A stretch of 64,000 nt of DNA from an uncultured Bdellovibrionales bacterium (GTDB taxonomy: Bacteria; Patescibacteriota; Minisyncoccia; Moranbacterales; UBA2206). A model generated the notes under the pieces. That model was not told where the DNA came from. It saw nothing but the letters and a program-made list of their open reading frames with translations, and ran no database searches. The stretch's first letter is position 1. Each line of letters opens with the position of its first letter. The position numbers and the translations under genes were made by a program. Positions 155 to 55,927 of this stretch are shown piece by piece. The stretch is from contig CAYLWX010000002.1 in NCBI GenBank assembly GCA_964387895.1, forward strand, positions 15,779 through 79,778. Direction: 5' to 3'.

Positions 155-313
155 AGTTTTATTATATAGTAAAAGTACCGCATCGGATAATTTTATCTCG
201 CAGCACCCATTGAGCGATCAGGGAAATGGAGATAAGTTAAAATATGAGAAAGTTTAGAGAAATAAATTTAGATTTGTTGTATGCAAAGCTTTTCCACAAG
301 TGGAAAGCTTTTT

Positions 314-396
314 AAATTTCCAATTCCCAATTTCCAATAAATGTCCAATGATTAAATTCCAAAATTTTGGACATTGGAAATTGGGAATTGGAAATT
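314..396. repeat. family-A dyad element: inverted arrays of 7-bp GGAAATT/GGGAATT units around a CCAAAATTTTGG centre
   Basis: Read directly. aaatttccaattcccaatttccaataaatgtccaa ... ttggacattggaaattgggaattggaaatt. Similar copies at 23836-23944 and 36496-36622. Sits between the divergent rnhB and dnaE starts. Confidence 0.75.
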
Positions 397-408
397 ACAG
401 CCATACCT

Positions 409-6224: not shown

Positions 6225-6335
6225 TTGTCTGAACCACTGATTCGCACATGATTACCCTGATTCCACTGATTATTTTATTTATACCAATTAATCAGTGCAA
6301 TCATGAAAATCAGTGATAATCAGTGGTTCAGACAA
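6225..6335. repeat. family-D palindromic element (TTGTCTGAACCACTGATT ... AATCAGTGGTTCAGACAA), empty form
   Basis: ~110-bp near-perfect dyad with internal CACTGATT/AATCAGTG sub-repeats. Lies between the thrS stop and the miaB start. Copies at 14178-14487 (carrying a nested element), 55819-55927 and a degenerate one at 7598-8004. Confidence 0.75.
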
Positions 6336-6340
6336 TTATT

Positions 6341-7612
6341 ATGAAGTATTACATCAAAACTTTCGGCTGCCAGATGAATCACTCCGACTCCGAAAGGATT
6401 GCCCGATACTTTGAAGAGAATAATATCGAATCGGCTTCAGATGTACATGAAGCTGATTTAGTTATGTTCAATACCTGCGGCGTGCGACAGATGGCGGAAG
6501 ATCGGATCTACGGACAGATCCATAATTTACGCAAGGCAAACCCAGATATAAAGATTGTGCTCACTGGCTGCCTTGCCAACCGCCAGGATGTGCGGAAAAA
6601 AATTTCGAGTAAAGTAGATTTATTTGTCGAGATAAAAAACATCGGCAGCGCGCTTGCCCAACTGGGTCTCGACCAAAAAGAATACACCCGCGATTACTTA
6701 TCTCTCCTGCCGAAACATACCAACAATTTCCAGGCATACATCCCCATCATGACCGGCTGCGATAATTTCTGCGCCTATTGCGTCGTGCCCTACGCGCGGG
6801 GAAGAGAAACTTCGCTTCTGGCAAAGGAAATTCTGGAAGAAATAAAAAATTTAGCGGCGCGAGGATGCAAAGAAATTATTCTCTTAGGACAAAATGTGAA
6901 CAGCTACCGCGATGGAACTGTAAATTTTCCCCGACTTTTACGAAAAGCAAACGCTATCCCCGGAAAATTTTGGATTCAGTTTATTTCTTCTCATCCCAAA
7001 GACGCGACTGATGAATTTATTAAAACTATAACCAAATTAAAGAAAGTTTGCGAGTATATTCACCTTCCTGTTCAATCCGGAGATGATGAAATATTGCAAC
7101 GCATGAATCGAAAGTACACCGCTAAACATTACTTACAACTGGTGAGAAAAATAAAACAGTCGTTTAAAAAATATAAACCAGACATGCTTTATTCTCTCAC
7201 TTCAGACATTATCGTCGGTTTCCCGGGAGAAACTCGCGCGCGATTCATGGAGTCAGCCAAAATCATGGAAAAAGCTAATTACGACATGGTTTATTTCGGC
7301 CAATATTCCCCCCGCCCCAACACCGCCGCATGGAAAATGAAAGATAATGTTTCCAAAAAAGAAAAAGTCCGTCGGGAGAAATATTTAAATAATATTCTCA
7401 AAAAAACTTCTTCGAATAATAACAAAAAATATTTGAAAAAAATAATTGAAGTGCTGGTAGAAAAAGAAGAAGGCGGTTATTATTTTGGCAGAACAAGAAC
7501 CAGCAAGCATGTGAAGTTTCCTGTAAGTAAAGAAAATCTTGTGGGAAAATTTACAAAAGTGAAAATAGTTAAGGCGAATGTGTGGAACCTTGAAGGATTG
7601 TCTGAACCATGA
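6341..7612 (+). CDS. miaB: tRNA-i6A37 methylthiotransferase (MiaB family radical SAM, MTTase + TRAM)
   Basis: MKYYIKTFGCQMNHSDSE N-terminal MTTase domain, radical-SAM CxxxCxxC (CDNFCAYC), C-terminal TRAM. The ORF-track start at 6323 is GTG inside the repeat. ATG at 6341 preferred. Confidence 0.8.
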   Translation: MKYYIKTFGCQMNHSDSERIARYFEENNIESASDVHEADLVMFNTCGVRQMAEDRIYGQIHNLRKANPDIKIVLTGCLANRQDVRKKISSKVDLFVEIKNIGSALAQLGLDQKEYTRDYLSLLPKHTNNFQAYIPIMTGCDNFCAYCVVPYARGRETSLLAKEILEEIKNLAARGCKEIILLGQNVNSYRDGTVNFPRLLRKANAIPGKFWIQFISSHPKDATDEFIKTITKLKKVCEYIHLPVQSGDDEILQRMNRKYTAKHYLQLVRKIKQSFKKYKPDMLYSLTSDIIVGFPGETRARFMESAKIMEKANYDMVYFGQYSPRPNTAAWKMKDNVSKKEKVRREKYLNNILKKTSSNNNKKYLKKIIEVLVEKEEGGYYFGRTRTSKHVKFPVSKENLVGKFTKVKIVKANVWNLEGLSEP

Positions 7613-8004
7613 TTTGCTTGATTTAATGATTTCATGATTACACCTCCAAGCAGGTTCAAGCGTCTCACTTGAACCTTGGATTTCTGACAGGCTATAGTCC
7701 GCAAGAAACTAAAAGTTCAGGCGTCTCGCCTGAACTTGTAAGAAGTAAAAAATGATTTTATATTTTTAGGGCTTACGCATTTGACTGTCTTTTGTCATTC
7801 CCGTGTAGACGGGAATCCAGGAGAATACGACATATTTATCCTATAATAATCCAGTTATAGAGCAAAAAGAAACTAAATCAGCTTTGTTATGTATATCGTT
7901 TTCCTCGATGAATCCTGGATCCCCGCCTACGCGGGGATGACAAATGCGTAAGTCCTAATTTTGATTTGTCATTTTGATTTTTGATTTTTACATTTTTCAT
8001 TTTT
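7598..8004. repeat. composite repeat region: truncated family-D arms enclosing two small GCGTCTC-loop hairpins and a reverse-oriented family-E MITE-like element
   Basis: Left D arm ttgtctgaaccatgatttgcttgattt overlaps the last miaB codons. Hairpins at 7648-7678 and 7715-7735. E copy at 7771-7953. A partial D right arm (gtcattttgatttttgattttt) runs into the miaA start. Confidence 0.6.
7771..7953 (-). mobile_element. family-E MITE-like element (GC-rich hairpin terminal inverted repeats), copy 1, reverse orientation
   Basis: TIRs gtcattcccgtgtagacgggaatccagga / tcctggatccccgcctacgcggggatgac. Outer cttacgcatttg / caaatgcgtaag. The internal ~95 bp is ~80% identical (as reverse complement) to copies at 14231-14413 and 21145-21313. 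Confidence 0.5.
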
Positions 8005-8018
8005 ATTATAAAAAAAAT

Positions 8019-10901: not shown

Positions 10902-11831
10902 TTATTTAGCACTGTCAGCTTGTTCCCAACCCGATGTTTTGTTATATTCCACAGCCTTTTTCTTCGCCCATTCAACAAGATCATCAGAAACATCTTCTGA
11001 TTTTTGATCAACGACATCATACCTAGATTCGTTAATACTACTAATGTATTTATCGGCATCTTTATTTGGATATTTCTCTTTATAGGCAACTTTCAATTGA
11101 TCCAGAAATTTTGGATCACCCATGAGCTGTCTAGATGCCCATTGTCCAGTGTTTGCAGGGTTTATCTTAAATGCCTCCAACATGAACTTAGCGTTATTCC
11201 GAAGCGCAGGATACATACCCTTAATTGTTCCGTCTTTATCATACAAAGTCGCTACTTTAAGCCGTTCATAAACAATATTTTCTTGATTTTCCGCTTGCTC
11301 TTCCTGATCTTTTCCCGCTACATCTTCACTGCCAGCTCCCTTTATCCTCTCCAAAATATCTGCCGCTTTTTTGGCGTCTTCTTCCGCCTGGAGCCTGTCT
11401 TGTTCCGCAAGTTCGGCTTTTCTTTTTGCTTCTTCTTCCGCGGCTTTAGCGGCTTTGGCTTCATCAAAAGCCTTATTTTCTTTGAGAGCTTCCCCATGAG
11501 CTTTATCCATTTTCTCTTTATCACGCGTTACATTTTCTTCCAAGGCTTCGCCATGGGCGCTTTCAATCATTTCACTTTTTTGCGCTTCCATTTTTCCCTT
11601 CTGCGTCTCTTCTTGCCTTATGCCTCCTTCCTCCGCTTGTAACGCTTCCCCTTGCTGTTGCAGTTTTTTGCCCAAAGCAATTAATTCTTCCGGTGATTCA
11701 GCCTTCATCACTTCTTGAGACATTTCGCTTTTGGTTCCTTCAAATTTTTTCTTGAAATTTTCCCACTTATTTTTCACCGATTCTTTGGCTCCTTCATAGG
11801 CTTTCGCCACTTTTTCAAATGCGGCTCTCAT
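10902..11831 (-). CDS. hypothetical Glu/Lys-rich coiled-coil protein with internal repeats
   Basis: 309-aa ORF. Repeated HGEALEEN / AHGEALKENKAF segments. Predicted long coiled coil. Confidence 0.45.
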   Translation of the reverse strand: MRAAFEKVAKAYEGAKESVKNKWENFKKKFEGTKSEMSQEVMKAESPEELIALGKKLQQQGEALQAEEGGIRQEETQKGKMEAQKSEMIESAHGEALEENVTRDKEKMDKAHGEALKENKAFDEAKAAKAAEEEAKRKAELAEQDRLQAEEDAKKAADILERIKGAGSEDVAGKDQEEQAENQENIVYERLKVATLYDKDGTIKGMYPALRNNAKFMLEAFKINPANTGQWASRQLMGDPKFLDQLKVAYKEKYPNKDADKYISSINESRYDVVDQKSEDVSDDLVEWAKKKAVEYNKTSGWEQADSAK

Positions 11832-11866: not shown

Positions 11867-12181
11867 TTACGCCACCCTGATTCCAGTCTTTTTTATCTCC
11901 CTAACCATCGGATCAACCTCGCTTTCAAAATCTTCTGGAACAAATCCAATTGGTTCGATTCTTAAATCTACGTCCACGCCAATTTTCCATAATAGCTCCT
12001 CATTCTTATTCCAGTCTTTTTTTAATTTATCAGATAAGACCGCGATATCAATATCACTTCCTGCGTGATATTTTCCAACTGCGTATGAACCAAATAGATA
12101 AATCGCGGAAAAGGGATAGTTTTCTGCTTTCAATTTTTCTCCAAACTTTATGGCTATTTTTTTAGCGTCAGCTTTTGACAT
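11867..12181 (-). CDS. nucleotidyltransferase-domain protein (MNT/antitoxin-like)
   Basis: GSYAVGKYHAGSDIDIAVL is the minimal nucleotidyltransferase G[SG]...D.D motif. No HEPN partner seen nearby. Confidence 0.55.
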   Translation of the reverse strand: MSKADAKKIAIKFGEKLKAENYPFSAIYLFGSYAVGKYHAGSDIDIAVLSDKLKKDWNKNEELLWKIGVDVDLRIEPIGFVPEDFESEVDPMVREIKKTGIRVA

Positions 12182-12207: not shown

Positions 12208-12702
12208 TTACGCTTTTTTCAGTTTTAGCACCGCTCTGAATTGTTTCACTTCTTTTTCCAAGTTTCTCACTCTTTCCATGAGAGAGATGCGATTTCCTTC
12301 ATCCATGTTTCCTTCTTCCAGATGCTCCAGTCGTTTTTTTATATCTTTTATTTCCTCGTCAAGATTAGAAAAATATTCAAAAACTGTTTTGAAGTTGCTT
12401 TTGGTTTCATCTCTAAATTCAAAAAGTTTCTTAAAATTAATCGCAGTTTCATCTTTGAATTCAAAGAGTTTCTTAAAATTAATCGCAGTTTCATCTTTGA
12501 ATTCTCGCAATTCTTCCTGCAGTATGGTTTGCCCTTCCGCCACGGCGTCAAATTTTCCTTCCAAATGTTCAATAAGCGCGCCTACTTCGCTCGCTCGAAA
12601 CATCCGTTCTATTTTTTTATCCATTTTTTTAAACTTTTTTTTCTTCATAGTAGTGAATAAATTCGCCCTAAAAGTATAGCATAAATGGAACGGCCTTATC
12701 AC
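12208..12702 (-). CDS. hypothetical coiled-coil protein containing a perfect 14-aa tandem repeat
   Basis: FKDETAINFKKLFE x2 then a diverged third copy. Start overlaps gatB stop by 4 bp (ATGA); alternative start at 12648 (MKKKKF). Confidence 0.4.
   Translation of the reverse strand: MIRPFHLCYTFRANLFTTMKKKKFKKMDKKIERMFRASEVGALIEHLEGKFDAVAEGQTILQEELREFKDETAINFKKLFEFKDETAINFKKLFEFRDETKSNFKTVFEYFSNLDEEIKDIKKRLEHLEEGNMDEGNRISLMERVRNLEKEVKQFRAVLKLKKA
12418..12501. repeat. 2 x 42-bp perfect tandem repeat inside a CDS
   Basis: ttcaaa(a/g)agtttcttaaaattaatcgcagtttcatctttgaa twice, in-frame within ORF 12208-12702. Confidence 0.8.
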
Positions 12703-14177: not shown

Positions 14178-14487
14178 TTGTCTGAACCACTGATTATCAC
14201 GTGATTACACATGATTTCACTGATTCATGACTTACGCATTTGTCATCCCCGCGAAGGCGGGGATCCAGGATTCAATGGGCGAGGTGAAATATAAAAATAT
14301 ACTAATTTCGATTCTTTTTACTCTATATCTGGATTATTATTAGATAGCCGTATGGTATACTCCTGGATTCCCGCCTACGCGGGAATGACATAAAAGAAAG
14401 CCAAACGCGTAAGTCATGTGATTTTTATTTTTCACTAAGCCAATCTGTGTAATCAGGAAAATCAGTGCGAATCAGTGGTTCAGACAA
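14178..14487. repeat. family-D palindromic element with a nested family-E element inserted at its centre
   Basis: Left arm 14178-14230 and right arm 14414-14487 together match the 110-bp element at 6225-6335. Between divergent gatB and ndk. Confidence 0.7.
14231..14413 (+). mobile_element. family-E MITE-like element, copy 2
   Basis: cttacgcatttgtcatccccgcgaaggcggggatccagga ... tcctggattcccgcctacgcgggaatgacataaaagaaagccaaacgcgtaag. TIRs are themselves hairpins (ccccgc-gaag-gcgggg). Confidence 0.5.
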
Positions 14488-14626
14488 TTACGCTACCAGT
14501 CTAGCATAAAAATAACAAATGTAAAAGGCTTTGTTGAGCTATAAAATAATAAGAACCCTTGCTAAAATTTGTATTTTCGTGTAGGAATTATATAGCTTTC
14601 TTTGACAATAGAATGTTTTCCGGAAA

Positions 14627-21144: not shown

Positions 21145-21313
21145 CTGCGTTTGGCTTTCTTTCTTGTCATCCCCGCGAAGGCGGGGATCCAGAATTTGAT
21201 AGGTAAGGCGAACTATATAAGGAAACTAATTTTGATTCTCTTTGCTTTATAACTGGATTATTATTGGATAGGTATGTTGTATACTCCTAGATTCCCGCCT
21301 ATGCGGGAATGAC
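21145..21313 (+). mobile_element. family-E MITE-like element, copy 3 (solo, without family-D arms)
   Basis: ctgcgtttggctttctttcttgtcatccccgcgaaggcggggatccagaa ... tcctagattcccgcctatgcgggaatgac. Between the dNMP kinase start and the rplA stop. Confidence 0.5.
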
Positions 21314-21341
21314 ATGGAAAACTTTCTTATTTTTGATAATT

Positions 21342-22516: not shown

Positions 22517-22655
22517 TAAATCCTAAGCACGATCCCGAGTACTCGGGACTAAATCCTAAACAATATCTAAATTAAAATTACCCAAATTAAAAATGTTTTA
22601 GATTTTGGTAATTTGAATTTGTTTAGGATTTAGATATTAAAATTTAGAATTTAAA
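22517..22655. repeat. family-B dyad element (AAATCCT 7-mer inverted arrays around AAAATGTTTT) with embedded TCCCGAGTACTCGGGA palindrome
   Basis: Between the nusG stop and the rplK start. Shares a cgtgcttaggattt segment abutting the start codon with the copy at 51365-51497. Confidence 0.7.
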
Positions 22656-22661
22656 TATCGA

Positions 22662-23211: not shown

Positions 23212-23297
23212 TTCATGAAACATGGAACACATAACACGGAACAAAAAATCCAAGATGATTTGTTTCATGCTCTATGTTCCATGTTCTATGTTAGAGT
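23212..23297. repeat. family-C dyad element (CATGGAA/ACATGGA 7-mer inverted arrays)
   Basis: catgaaacatggaacacataacacggaac ... gtttcatgctctatgttccatgttctatg. Between secE and nusG. Confidence 0.65.
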
Positions 23298-23748: not shown

Positions 23749-23835
23749 TGTAGACTGACCGTTATTCTAACAAAAAATAATAATACTGTCCATACCAACC
23801 AGATTATTGTAAAATAAATAGATTTCAAAAATCCT

Positions 23836-23944
23836 AATATCCAAATCCCAATGCCAAATAAAATCCCAAATCCCAATTTCAAAACTTTTGGACATTCTGA
23901 TTTTGGGTTTTATTGGATATTGGGATTTGGGAATTGTAAATTTA
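23836..23944. repeat. family-A dyad element, diverged copy (CCCAAAT/GGGATTT arms, CAAAACTTTTGG centre)
   Basis: Upstream (5') of the minus-strand tRNA-Ala/Ile-secE-nusG block, downstream of murD. Confidence 0.65.
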
Positions 23945-23992
23945 GATCATAGTAAATATCTTCCAGCCACATACATTCACTTTTCTTTATTA

Positions 23993-34293: not shown

Positions 34294-34373
34294 TATGGAA
34301 CATAAAACATGGAACATGGAAAAAAATTTAAAATAATTTGTTCCATGTTATGTGTTCCATGTTTCATGTTTTT
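34294..34373. repeat. family-C dyad element (ACATGGA 7-mer inverted arrays around an A/T centre)
   Basis: ggaacataaaacatggaacatggaaaaaaatttaaaataatttgttccatgttatgtgttccatgtttcatg. Between the hydrogenase large-subunit stop and the HypA-like start. Confidence 0.65.
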
Positions 34374-36452: not shown

Positions 36453-36495
36453 AATAGAGTTATCGATTATTGAAGCGAGGGTAGACACAATACTT

Positions 36496-36622
36496 AAATT
36501 TCCAATTCCCAAATCCCAATTTCCAATAAATGTCCAATGACCAAATTCCAAAAATTTTGCACATTGGGATTTGGGGTCCCGAGTACCCGGAATTGGAAAT
36601 TAGATATTGGGAATTGGAAATT
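36496..36622. repeat. family-A dyad element, copy with embedded GTCCCGAGTACCCGG palindrome
   Basis: aaatttccaattcccaaatcccaatttccaataaatgtccaatga ... ttgcacattgggatttggggtcccgagtacccggaattggaaattagatattgggaattggaaatt. Between hydG and the hydrogenase small subunit. Confidence 0.7.
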
Positions 36623-36687
36623 ACAGGAAATAAATTAAAAAAATTATAATCCAAACAGGCGGATCAACATATAAATTATATCACACT

Positions 36688-51340: not shown

Positions 51341-51364
51341 ACTTTTGTAGTTTCTATTTTAGTA

Positions 51365-51497
51365 AAATCCTAAGCACGAAATCCTAAATCCTAAACAAAT
51401 TCAAATCACCAAAATACAGAAACTCAAAACGTTTTGAATTTAAACTATTTGTATTTTGAATTTGTTTAGTATTTAGATATTCGGATTTAGGATTTTA
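51365..51497. repeat. family-B dyad element (AAATCCT inverted arrays, AAAACGTTTT centre)
   Basis: aaatcctaagcacgaaatcctaaatcctaaacaaattcaaat ... atttgaatttgtttagtatttagatattcggatttaggattt. Immediately 5' of tpiA. Confidence 0.7.
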
Positions 51498-51504
51498 AAG
51501 AAAA

Positions 51505-55818: not shown

Positions 55819-55927
55819 TGTGTCAGAACCACTGATTCGCACGTGATTATCCTGATTTCACTGATTTTATTTTTCATCAGACTAATCTGTGTAATCAGGA
55901 AAATCAGTGATAATCAGTGGTTCTGAT
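55819..55927. repeat. family-D palindromic element, empty form
   Basis: gtcagaaccactgattcgcacgtgattatcctgatttcactgatt ... aatcaggaaaatcagtgataatcagtggttctgat. Fills the secY-adk intergenic space. Confidence 0.7.

What the first reader, a model, noticed from the sequence alone, without database searches (positions are those of the whole stretch)
14178..14487. Nested repeats: a ~170-bp hairpin-TIR element inserted precisely at the centre of a ~110-bp CTGATT-rich palindrome (seen twice)
Seen: the family-D element exists in empty form at 6225-6335 and 55819-55927. At 14178-14487 its two arms are split by the family-E element. At 7598-8004 a degenerate D pair again encloses an E copy, inverted. 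E also occurs solo at 21145-21313. E termini are 25-30-bp GC-rich inverted repeats, each itself a stable stem-loop (CCCCGC-GAAG-GCGGGG, CCCGC-CTAC-GCGGG), extended by CTTACGC(A/G)TTTG. That is a classic MITE architecture. D arms contain three phased CACTGATT/AATCAGTG sub-repeats, like iterons or protein-binding sites. All copies sit at gene 5' ends: miaB, miaA, gatB/ndk, adk, rplA.
Basis: seen in the sequence. Interest (0 to 1): 0.6.

Follow-up and report, generated by a model that had tools for sequence, protein, structure and literature searches.

The report
Two nested miniature mobile DNA elements
A 193-bp miniature transposon has inserted into the loop of a ~112-bp palindromic repeat just upstream of gatB in a Candidatus Moranbacteria genome; both belong to large repeat families I could not find described, and the palindrome looks like the gene-less form of a cassette carrying a small GxxExxY nuclease gene.

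Summary
The repeats are real. At 14178-14487 a 193-bp element (E, 14226-14418) sits inside a palindrome (D) and is flanked by a 5-bp duplication, TGATT. Removing E plus one TGATT rebuilds a D that is 83-84% identical to the two empty copies.

E is a genuine MITE. Its family (ends TAGGACTTACGCGTTTG, internal GC hairpins that covary) occurs in many CPR and other MAGs. Of 56 copies, 32 have perfect 5-bp duplications, against 0-2 at control offsets. No transposase was found.

D is a second abundant family in Moranbacteria and related Parcubacteria. It has conserved ends TCWGAACC...GGTTCWGA, four phased CAC(N)TGATT words per arm, no arm covariation and no clear duplication. It fills operon spacers from stop codon to ATG. 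D is absent from the same junctions in relatives. In at least 11 loci the same arms bracket a GxxExxY PD-(D/E)XK nuclease gene, and other GxxExxY subfamilies carry arms built from other words.

The claimed second nesting (7598-8004) fails, because the right "arm" is not inverted. E does not generally target palindromes (3 of 56). The 21 kb copy lies at the 3' end of rplA, not the 5' end. Rfam gives only sub-threshold hits (WsnRNA46, FtrB).

Verdict: an ordinary nested MITE, inside a host palindrome family that is the more interesting part.

The parts
14178..14225 (.). D palindrome, left arm (TTGTCTGAACC + four phased CAC(N)TGATT words). It abuts the gatB ATG (14168-14166, minus strand) across a 9-nt spacer.
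14221..14225 (.). Target-site duplication of E, copy 1 (TGATT). It is the last word of the D left arm.
14226..14418 (+). E MITE, 193 bp. Outer inverted repeats are CATGACTTACGCATTT (14226-14241) and CAAACGCGTAAGTCATG (14402-14418). GC hairpin modules lie at 14242-14269 and 14362-14389, around an AT-rich core.
14419..14423 (.). Target-site duplication of E, copy 2 (TGATT).
14424..14487 (.). D palindrome: remainder of the loop plus the right arm (...AATCAGTGGTTCAGACAA).
6225..6335 (.). D copy without insert. It lies between the thrS terminator-like hairpin and the miaB ATG (6341), with a 7-nt spacer after GGTTCAGAC.
55820..55927 (.). D copy without insert. On the minus strand the secY stop (55931-55929) is 1 nt from one end, and the adk ATG (55815-55813) is 6 nt from the other.
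7767..7957 (-). E MITE, 191 bp, inverted relative to the 14k copy. Ends are TAGGGCTTACGC...GCGTAAGTCCTA. The duplication ATTTT lies at 7762-7766 and 7958-7962. It sits in the miaB-miaA spacer, not inside a palindrome.
21145..21315 (+). Degenerate E copy: hairpin doublet plus core. Outer inverted repeats are largely lost and there is no duplication. It lies between the rplA stop and the kinase-gene start.
7598..7640 (+). D-like solo arm (GTCTGAACCA + four TGATT) overlapping the miaB stop codon. It has no inverted partner.

Best explanation
The feature is two unrelated non-autonomous mobile elements, one inside the other.

**Inner element E.** E is a MITE. It has 17-nt outer inverted repeats (consensus TAGGACTTACGCGTTTG). 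It also has subterminal GC hairpin modules (GTCATYCCCG-loop-CGGGRATCCAG) whose stems are kept by compensatory changes. It was inserted by a transposase supplied in trans that makes 5-bp staggered cuts in AT-rich DNA. Here it hit the word TGATT at the edge of the D loop. The insertion and duplication are shown. The transposase is inferred and unidentified.

**Outer element D.** D is a ~90-112-bp palindromic repeat of Moranbacteria and related Parcubacteria. Its ends are TCWGAACC...GGTTCWGA, and each arm is four phased CAC(N)TGATT words. It occupies the tiny spacers between a stop codon and the next ATG. D is the gene-less form of a cassette in which the same arms bracket a ~128-aa GxxExxY PD-(D/E)XK nuclease gene.

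**Proposed mechanism for D (inferred).** The nuclease recognises the phased words on both arms. It then mobilises or copies arm pairs in trans. This is analogous to REPINs and their RAYT transposase, but with a different enzyme class.

**Consequence.** D+E lies downstream of a conserved promoter-like site and 9 nt upstream of the gatB ATG. It is therefore probably transcribed as a 310-nt rod-like 5' UTR (inferred).
For: **E**
- Perfect TGATT duplication, and a rebuilt D 83-84% identical to the empty copies.
- The second copy has an ATTTT duplication.
- 71 stretches in other genomes carry the same ends.
- Element sizes are 53-197 bp, apart from two doubtful longer end-pairings of 331 and 372 bp.
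- 32 of 56 copies have perfect 5-bp duplications, against 0-2 of 56 at shifted control offsets.
- The hairpin stems covary: T-A 140 / C-G 15 against 7 mismatched at one position, and C-G 74 / A-T 57 at another.

**D**
- 84 paired copies, most of them 87-104 bp long.
- D is absent from the gatB upstream region of a relative with 88% GatB identity.
- D is absent from the thrS|miaB, miaB|miaA and rplA|kinase junctions of relatives at 75-77% identity.
- The same porG|porD-type junction is filled in three contigs and empty in three.
- The GxxExxY gene (TIGR04256 / PF13366) lies between D arms in 8 metagenome loci, with 3 more adjacent or partial. It also does so in 3 of 3 distinct loci fetched by protein alone.
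- Flanking genes differ between these loci.
- Six other GxxExxY loci (five distinct genes), 26-64% identical, have inverted arms of their own, and the most diverged use other words. All score at or above 15, against a median of 8 and a 95th percentile of 11.9 for control ORFs.
- The catalytic D...ExK motif is invariant.
- The predicted fold is PD-(D/E)XK, with a Cas4 chain as the top hit.
- In 25 of 31 expanded D copies the extra DNA lies between two complete arms.

**Transcription context**
- A conserved TTTACA-16-TGcTAGACT site lies upstream of the insertion.
Against: - No autonomous E element or transposase was found, either in the window or next to 70-odd family members.
- The window has no GxxExxY gene. 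A trans-acting source in this genome is therefore assumed.
- D shows no clear target-site duplication.
- No PD-(D/E)XK protein of this family is known to move DNA, and no related structure or paper was found.
- D is tightly placed next to start codons and shows a sense-strand bias at its ends. Both could reflect function rather than selfish spread.
- The gene could be a passenger that landed in D loops, as E did.
- The window's own genome was not in the scanned genome collection, so genome-wide copy numbers are unknown.
Confidence: 0.72

Rival explanations
1. D is chiefly a host cis-acting element, and its spread is secondary. Candidate roles are an intercistronic RNA hairpin (an RNase III processing or stabilising site, or a translation-initiation context) or a DNA operator array for a host protein. 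E merely happened to land in it.
For: - 57 of 84 D copies have an ATG ORF starting within 60 nt of an outer end, mostly 4-15 nt away.
- In 46 of 49 oriented copies the upstream co-directional gene stops within -20 to +15 nt of the other end.
- The strand reading TCAGA at both ends is the sense strand in 24 of 29 cases.
- The hairpin is very stable: -52.6 kcal/mol, z = -11.5.
- The words are invariant across copies.
- D-adjacent genes lack Shine-Dalgarno-like sequence in the spacers I read.
Against: - D is absent from orthologous junctions in close relatives that carry the same genes.
- There is no compensatory change in the arms, so pairing itself is not what is conserved.
- The same arms carry a nuclease gene in unrelated contexts.
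- The tight placement is also expected from survivorship alone: in a genome with 5-20-nt operon spacers, only spacer insertions survive.
Confidence: 0.2
2. E is a structured small-RNA gene of the WsnRNA46 / FtrB type, not a transposon relic.
For: - Full-length but sub-threshold Rfam alignments: WsnRNA46 30.1 bits, E = 2-3e-4; FtrB 25.7 bits.
- FtrB is a ~115-nt sRNA verified by Northern blot and RACE. Its Rfam consensus contains a hairpin that aligns identically with E's right-end hairpin over 24 nt, GUCAUUCCCGCGUAGGCGGGAAUC (PMC3091763).
- The hairpin stems covary.
Against: - Scores are less than half the gathering thresholds.
- Only the hairpin framework aligns; the core does not.
- Target-site duplications, variable size (53-197 bp) and presence in many phyla point to transposition.
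- The ftrB deletion had no growth, stress or virulence phenotype (PMC3091763). Those Rfam families may themselves be repeat-derived transcripts (my inference).
Confidence: 0.08
3. E is a NIME-like unit, as in Neisseria. [quoted passage not shown]
For: - The right hairpin ATTCCCGCCTACGCGGGAAT fits the dRS3 consensus ATTCCC-N8-GGGAAT exactly.
- The layout 'hairpin, low-GC unit, hairpin' equals dRS3-RS-dRS3 (PMC1797815).
- The bare hairpin module is extremely widespread, including more than 120 viral contigs.
- Hairpin doublets without the outer repeats exist: the 21k copy and L329.
Against: - There are no arrays of alternating units here.
- Complete copies carry additional outer inverted repeats and 5-bp duplications, which recombinase-site models do not predict.
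- The other hairpin is ATCCCC...GGGGAT, off consensus.
- No IS110-type gene was seen.
Confidence: 0.07

Closest known systems
Bacterial MITEs (for example Correia/CREE elements of Neisseria; reviewed in PMC3184786)
   Same: E is short, has no ORF, and has terminal inverted repeats, target-site duplications and many copies in intergenic DNA. It can lie in 5' UTRs.
   Different: E makes 5-bp duplications of variable AT-rich sequence, not the TA duplication that I recall for Correia elements. Its ends are TAGGACTTACGCGTTTG plus covarying GC hairpins. No parent insertion sequence is known. The family spans several phylum-level groups.
Neisseria intergenic mosaic elements (dRS3-RS-dRS3; PMC1797815)
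   Same: A 20-bp ATTCCC-N8-GGGAAT hairpin flanks a lower-GC unit of 50-150 bp. The GC peaks-and-trough profile is the same.
   Different: NIMEs form arrays and were said to be specific to Neisseria. They have no outer inverted repeat or duplication, and they are thought to be recombinase or phage integration sites.
Rfam WsnRNA46 (RF02625) and FtrB (RF02748)
   Same: They share the framework GUCAUyCC-stem-GGrAUCCAG ... CUGGAUyCC-stem-GGrAUGAC. The FtrB consensus hairpin aligns identically with E's over 24 nt.
   Different: Scores of 30.1 and 25.7 bits are far below the gathering scores of 65.3 and 66. The cores are unrelated. Those families are defined as sRNAs of single genera.
REPIN-RAYT systems (PMC3116915; PMC3333891)
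   Same: D resembles a REPIN: a ~100-bp hairpin made of two inverted halves, dispersed in intergenic DNA. A single protein gene is flanked by the same sequences, and each protein subfamily has its own repeat.
   Different: The associated protein is a GxxExxY PD-(D/E)XK nuclease, not a Y1/HUH transposase. The arms are arrays of phased 5-9-nt words, not a GC-rich REP stem. There is no GTAG motif. The hosts are CPR bacteria. Mobilisation is untested.
Insertion sequences that target REP palindromes (IS1397, ISPpu9 and others; PMC1525189, PMC12288879)
   Same: One mobile element sits inside the loop or stem of a repeated palindrome.
   Different: Those insertion sequences are specific for REPs. E is not: only 3 of 56 copies lie in palindromic flanks. 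The nesting here looks opportunistic, in the only dispensable DNA available.
ERIC/IRU and 23S rRNA intervening sequences (my own knowledge, not tested here)
   Same: Both are long imperfect palindromes that lie in transcribed regions. Intervening sequences sometimes carry a small ORF in the loop. In L327 a 23S_rRNA_IVP-family gene is likewise bracketed by phased-word inverted arms.
   Different: D lies between protein-coding genes, not in rRNA. There is no evidence here of RNase III excision.

Membership tests
MITE (for E) | Terminal inverted repeats | tested here: met
   CATGACTTACGCATTTG / CAAACGCGTAAGTCATG at 14k, and TAGGGCTTACGCATTTG / CAAATGCGTAAGTCCTA at 7.7k. The family consensus is TAGGACTTACGCGTTTG.
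MITE (for E) | Target-site duplication | tested here: met
   TGATT and ATTTT in the window. 32 of 56 family members have perfect 5-bp duplications, against 0-2 at control offsets.
MITE (for E) | Small, non-coding, multi-copy | tested here: met
   Sizes are 53-197 bp, apart from two doubtful longer end-pairings. There are 3 copies in 64 kb, and roughly 30 and 13 stretches in two MAGs, from the titles listed.
MITE (for E) | Empty site available for comparison | tested here: met
   A paralogous empty site exists: the rebuilt D is 83-84% identical to the empty D copies across the junction. An orthologous relative lacks both D and E.
MITE (for E) | Autonomous element with the same ends encoding a transposase | tested here: inconclusive
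   None was found in the 8-kb loci around 71 matches, in viral contigs or in the window. Whole genomes were not searched.
Rfam WsnRNA46 RF02625 | Covariance-model score at or above the gathering score (65.3 bits) | tested here: not met
   30.1 bits.
Rfam FtrB RF02748 | Covariance-model score at or above the gathering score (66 bits) | tested here: not met
   25.7 bits.
Neisseria NIME | dRS3 hairpins ATTCCC-N8-GGGAAT flanking an RS unit | tested here: met
   ATTCCCGCCTACGCGGGAAT (14368-14387) fits. The partner, ATCCCCGCGAAGGCGGGGAT, is one compensated pair away (consensus from PMC1797815).
Neisseria NIME | Arrays of alternating dRS3 and RS units, without outer inverted repeats or duplications | tested here: not met
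   The copies are single units that carry outer inverted repeats and 5-bp duplications.
IS200/IS605-derived palindromic elements (PATE) and REP | Subterminal hairpins, with no terminal inverted repeats and no target duplication | tested here: not met
   E has both inverted repeats and duplications.
REPIN-RAYT (for D) | Two inverted repeat halves forming a hairpin of about 100 bp, dispersed in intergenic DNA | tested here: met
   84 paired copies, most 87-104 bp long. The fold is -52.6 kcal/mol, z = -11.5.
REPIN-RAYT (for D) | Associated gene is a Y1 (HUH) RAYT transposase flanked by the repeats | tested here: not met
   The flanked gene is GxxExxY / PDDEXK_3.
Plasmid-type iterons (for the D sub-repeats) | Direct repeats at a replication origin, bound by a Rep initiator | tested here: not met
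   The words form inverted arrays, present in many copies between housekeeping genes. Binding was not tested.
GxxExxY / PDDEXK_3 (the protein linked to D) | Model score above cut-off and an intact D...(D/E)xK motif | tested here: met
   TIGR04256 134.9 bits (cut-off 35). PF13366 130.9 bits (cut-off 22). D74, E84 and K86 are invariant. The fold search returns PD-(D/E)XK nucleases.

The most novel reading that the evidence does not exclude
D-type palindromes and GxxExxY nucleases form a previously unrecognised self-propagating system in CPR bacteria. A small PD-(D/E)XK nuclease gene is bracketed by inverted arrays of phased recognition words, and each nuclease subfamily has its own word. The gene-less arm pairs (D here, and probably the CCAAT-, ATTTAG- and CATGAAAC-type palindromes in this window) are its non-autonomous offspring. 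They colonise the stop-to-start spacers of operons. This would be a REPIN-RAYT analogue built on a different enzyme.
Probability: 0.4. Interest if true: 0.8.

Novelty: new variant of a known kind. Interest (0 to 1): 0.58.

Why it matters
CPR/Patescibacteria genomes are tiny and gene-dense, and are usually described as poor in mobile DNA. This window shows at least two abundant families of miniature repeats living in its few non-coding bases.

E belongs to a hairpin-framework superfamily that crosses phyla. Parts of that superfamily have been catalogued as genus-specific sRNAs or as Neisseria-specific repeats. Recognising the common mobile origin would tidy those annotations and explain many spurious 'hypothetical proteins' (the last point is my own recollection).

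The link between D and GxxExxY genes gives a testable function to a very large protein family that has none. If it holds, it would add a second enzyme class to the REPIN-RAYT type of long-term genome resident.

These elements sit in 5' UTRs and between cistrons of core genes (gatB, miaB, adk, and probably an elongation-factor gene elsewhere, judged only from the first codons). They may therefore also shape expression in organisms that cannot yet be manipulated.

Tried and rejected
- **Exact-protein look-up of the window's GatB.** Found no contig. The window's own genome was not among the genome-contig hits, so genome-wide copy counts could not be made.
- **Search for a parent of E.** I paired ends up to 8 kb apart, compared 564 ORFs around E copies all-against-all, and scanned viral contigs with the outer repeat (6 chance hits). 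I also ran Pfam on 20 window ORFs of unclear function. None gave a transposase.
- **L134.** It looked like a long element but is a solo end.
- **Sigma-70 promoter scan of D.** Hits were not above the shuffle expectation. 'D carries a promoter' is therefore unsupported.
- **Target-site duplication for D.** There is no enrichment at any offset or length. The TCWGA ends are direct repeats in only 39 of 69 copies.
- **E targets palindromes.** Rejected: 3 of 56.
- **Arm covariation in D.** None.
- **Literature by sequence strings and by 'GxxExxY', 'MITE + CPR/Patescibacteria'.** Only primers and unrelated papers came up.
- **PDB sequence search for GxxExxY.** No relative found.

Full report
**Source and context**

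The window comes from a Candidatus Moranbacteria (CPR/Patescibacteria) genome. Its GatB has a 100% identical NCBI entry on a 98-kb contig, and the nearest named relatives are Moranbacteria and Parcubacteria MAGs. GC content is about 42% and genes are tightly packed. NCBIfam confirms thrS, miaB, miaA, gatB, ndk, rplA and rplK. Reading of the ORFs identifies secY, adk, map and ribosomal-protein genes near 55 kb.

**Checking the observation**

The sequences are as described.
- The D terminus GAACCACTGATT occurs six times exactly, as three inverted pairs at 6.2, 14.2/14.5 and 55.8 kb.
- E occurs three times at 79-84% identity over 151-165 nt.
- The GC hairpins are far above shuffle expectation.
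- The outer CTTACGCRTTTG repeat is present on the 14k and 7.7k copies only.
- Rfam at gathering thresholds finds only four tRNAs in the window.

The nesting at 14178-14487 is exact.
- E spans 14226-14418 and is flanked by TGATT on both sides.
- Removing E and one TGATT rebuilds a 112-bp palindrome. It is 95/113 identical to the 55k copy and 95/114 to the 6k copy, straight across the junction.

The claimed second nesting fails.
- At 7598-7640 there is a D-like arm that overlaps the miaB stop codon.
- The sequence to the right of E (7958-8018) carries TGATT in direct orientation. It has no inverted match (score 5.0, shuffle mean 6.0).
- The flanks of that E copy score 8.0 for inverted similarity, inside the control range.

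The 21k copy lacks the outer repeats. It lies between the rplA stop and a kinase-gene start, so it is not at the 5' end of rplA.

**What E is**

A scan of 185,579 species-representative genomes for the E end (CTTACGCRTTTG, 0-14 nt, TCATYCCCG) returned 71 stretches. By the record titles these were:
- about 30 in one MAG labelled Planctomycetales;
- about 13 in a Saccharibacteria MAG;
- about 9 in a Taylorbacteria MAG;
- others in Parcubacteria, Sungiibacteriota, Jacksonbacteria and Gammaproteobacteria MAGs, plus single matches in Binatia, Dehalococcoidia and Leptolinea MAGs, of which one (Leptolinea, L161) I judged likely chance on reading.

Aligned by eye, the true ends are TAGGACTTACGCGTTTG...CAAACGCGTAAGTCCTA. 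Element sizes run from 53 to 197 bp with a mode of 117, apart from two doubtful longer end-pairings. The window's copies of 191-193 bp are at the long end.

Duplications and structure:
- The 5 nt outside the two ends are identical in 32 of 56 elements, against 0-2 of 56 at any shifted control offset.
- The duplicated words are diverse and AT-rich.
- The internal hairpins keep their stems by compensatory change: T-A or C-G at one pair, and C-G or A-T at another, with few mismatches.

E is therefore a MITE. I found no parent element or transposase.

The 27-nt hairpin module alone is extremely widespread. It fits the Neisseria dRS3 consensus (PMC1797815).

With relaxed thresholds, Rfam aligns E end to end with WsnRNA46 (30.1 bits; gathering score 65.3) and with FtrB (25.7 bits; gathering score 66). 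The FtrB consensus hairpin aligns identically with E's over 24 nt. E thus shares a framework with sequences filed elsewhere as sRNAs or NIMEs, but it is not a member of those families.

**What D is**

From these I recovered 84 paired elements, most of them 87-104 bp long.

Conservation:
- Across 41 unexpanded copies the words GAACCAC-TGATT, CAC(N)TGATT, TGATT and CAC(N)TGA are nearly invariant.
- The spacers between the words vary and are not complementary between arms.
- None of 23 predicted pairs shows a compensatory change.
- What is conserved is therefore sequence words with roughly 9-11-bp phasing. This fits protein recognition of DNA better than selection on a hairpin.
- No target duplication is detectable.

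Position:
- 57 of 84 copies have an ATG ORF beginning within 60 nt of an outer end, mostly 4-15 nt away.
- In 46 of 49 oriented cases a co-directional upstream gene stops within -20 to +15 nt of the other end.
- D therefore replaces the whole operon spacer. The window's copies behave the same way: secY stop, 1 nt, D, 6 nt, adk ATG; and D, 7 nt, miaB ATG.

Evidence that D comes and goes:
- The relative with 88% identical GatB has a colinear gatB-ndk spacer that lacks all 310 bp.
- Three relatives at 75-77% identity with the same gene order lack D and E at thrS|miaB, miaB|miaA and rplA|kinase.
- One porG|porD-type junction is empty in three contigs and filled in three.

**The nuclease link**

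Several 'long' D copies contain a 128-aa ORF exactly in the loop. It is a GxxExxY protein (TIGR04256, 134.9 bits; PF13366, 130.9 bits).
- Eleven D loci carry this subfamily at 77-100% identity, and in eight the gene lies between an arm pair. Their neighbouring genes are unrelated.
- Retrieval by protein alone, independent of the D pattern, gave three different Moranbacteria loci. All three have D arms on both sides.
- Six further GxxExxY loci in the fetched DNA (five distinct genes), 26-64% identical, also lie between inverted arms. The most diverged use different words such as ACGAAT.
- All score at or above 15 on a scale where control ORFs have a median of 8 and a 95th percentile of 11.9.
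- These genes are nearly always co-directional with both neighbours, with gaps of one arm length.
- D74, E84 and K86 are invariant.
- The AlphaFold model (pLDDT 84.8) matches Cas4, MGME1, AddAB-type and other PD-(D/E)XK nucleases.
- In 25 of 31 expanded D copies both arms are complete and the extra DNA lies between them. The extra DNA can be a gene, a terminator-like hairpin or another MITE.

The simplest reading is that arm-gene-arm is the full unit and D is its gene-less derivative. That the nuclease moves them is inference. The window itself has no such gene.

**Mechanism and rivals**

Shown:
- E inserted into D with a 5-bp duplication.
- Both families are multi-copy and polymorphic between relatives.
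- D arms are word arrays.
- D arms bracket GxxExxY genes.

Inferred:
- A DDE-type transposase acts on E in trans.
- GxxExxY acts on D.
- D+E is transcribed as the gatB leader, downstream of a promoter-like site conserved with the relative.

The main rival is that D is kept for a host function at the RNA or operator level. The tight spacing and a sense-strand bias at the ends support it. Its absence from orthologous sites and the lack of covariation argue against it. The two readings are not exclusive. The end asymmetry and the lone TCAGA in contig L275 remain unexplained.

**Novelty**

A MITE nested in another repeat is ordinary. E is a new member of a known kind, and it links several separately named repeats. 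D, with its nuclease-bearing form, is in my judgement a new variant of the REPIN-RAYT idea. I found no paper on it in the library, but absence from that library is not proof.

Noticed in passing
window 310-400, 23825-23946, 36495-36626; 22596-22658, 51360-51500; 23214-23290, 34321-34370: There are at least three further families of 80-130-bp intergenic palindromes built from phased short words (CCAAT/ATTGG, CTAAAT/ATTTAG, CATGAAAC/GGAACA). They share D's architecture and may be gene-less forms of other nuclease or IVP cassettes.
   Followed up: partly
L324 15330-15840; L303, L206/L306, L242, L271: Diverged GxxExxY genes (26-64% identity to the D-linked one) are each flanked by inverted arms. 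The most diverged use other repeated words such as ACGAAT, which suggests protein and arm change together.
   Followed up: partly
L327 4790-5320: A 23S_rRNA_IVP (PF05635) gene is bracketed by GAGAGTTA / TAACTCTC word arrays in inverted orientation. In several Moranbacteria loci such a gene lies next to or near a GxxExxY gene.
   Followed up: no
window 7655-7680 and 7713-7737: Two related hairpins with a GCGTCTC loop (AGGTTCAAG...CTTGAACCT and AAGTTCAGGC...GCCTGAACTT) lie between miaB and the 7.7k E copy. One scores as a terminator on the minus strand.
   Followed up: no
L147 (Taylorbacteria MHSK01000017), around 3694 on the minus strand: An E-family MITE lies inside a CCAAT-type palindrome. 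This is a second example of nesting, in another phylum-level group.
   Followed up: no
L329 640-725: A Moranbacteria relative has an independent GTCATTCCC...GGGAATGAC hairpin doublet, without the outer repeats, ending 4 nt before its gatB ATG.
   Followed up: no
L240, L248, L256 (D loops); L207, L265, L293: D loops elsewhere hold terminator-like GC hairpins with A and T runs, or other GC-rich MITE-like inserts (for example a GTCATTCTGAG...CTCAGGATGAC type).
   Followed up: partly
L275 about 11000-11025, compared with L260, L214 and L281: At one orthologous junction, a contig has a lone TCAGA exactly where a relative has TCAGA-D-TCAGA. Two others have no TCAGA. This is either a possible excision footprint or a pre-insertion target.
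   Followed up: partly
window 14498-14525 (minus strand) and L121 150-200: A promoter-like TTTACA-16-TGcTAGACT is conserved between the window and the D-less relative. It places D+E inside the gatB leader.
   Followed up: partly
L001-L120 (IMG/VR contigs): The bare 27-nt hairpin module GTCATYCCCGC-N4-GCGGGRATCCAG is present in more than 120 viral-contig stretches, some with 4-5 copies. Its spread goes far beyond the E family.
   Followed up: no
window 11867-12181: A small nucleotidyltransferase-domain ORF (PF01909) sits next to an unannotated 164-aa ORF (12208-12702) just downstream of gatB. This may be a toxin-antitoxin-like pair.
   Followed up: no
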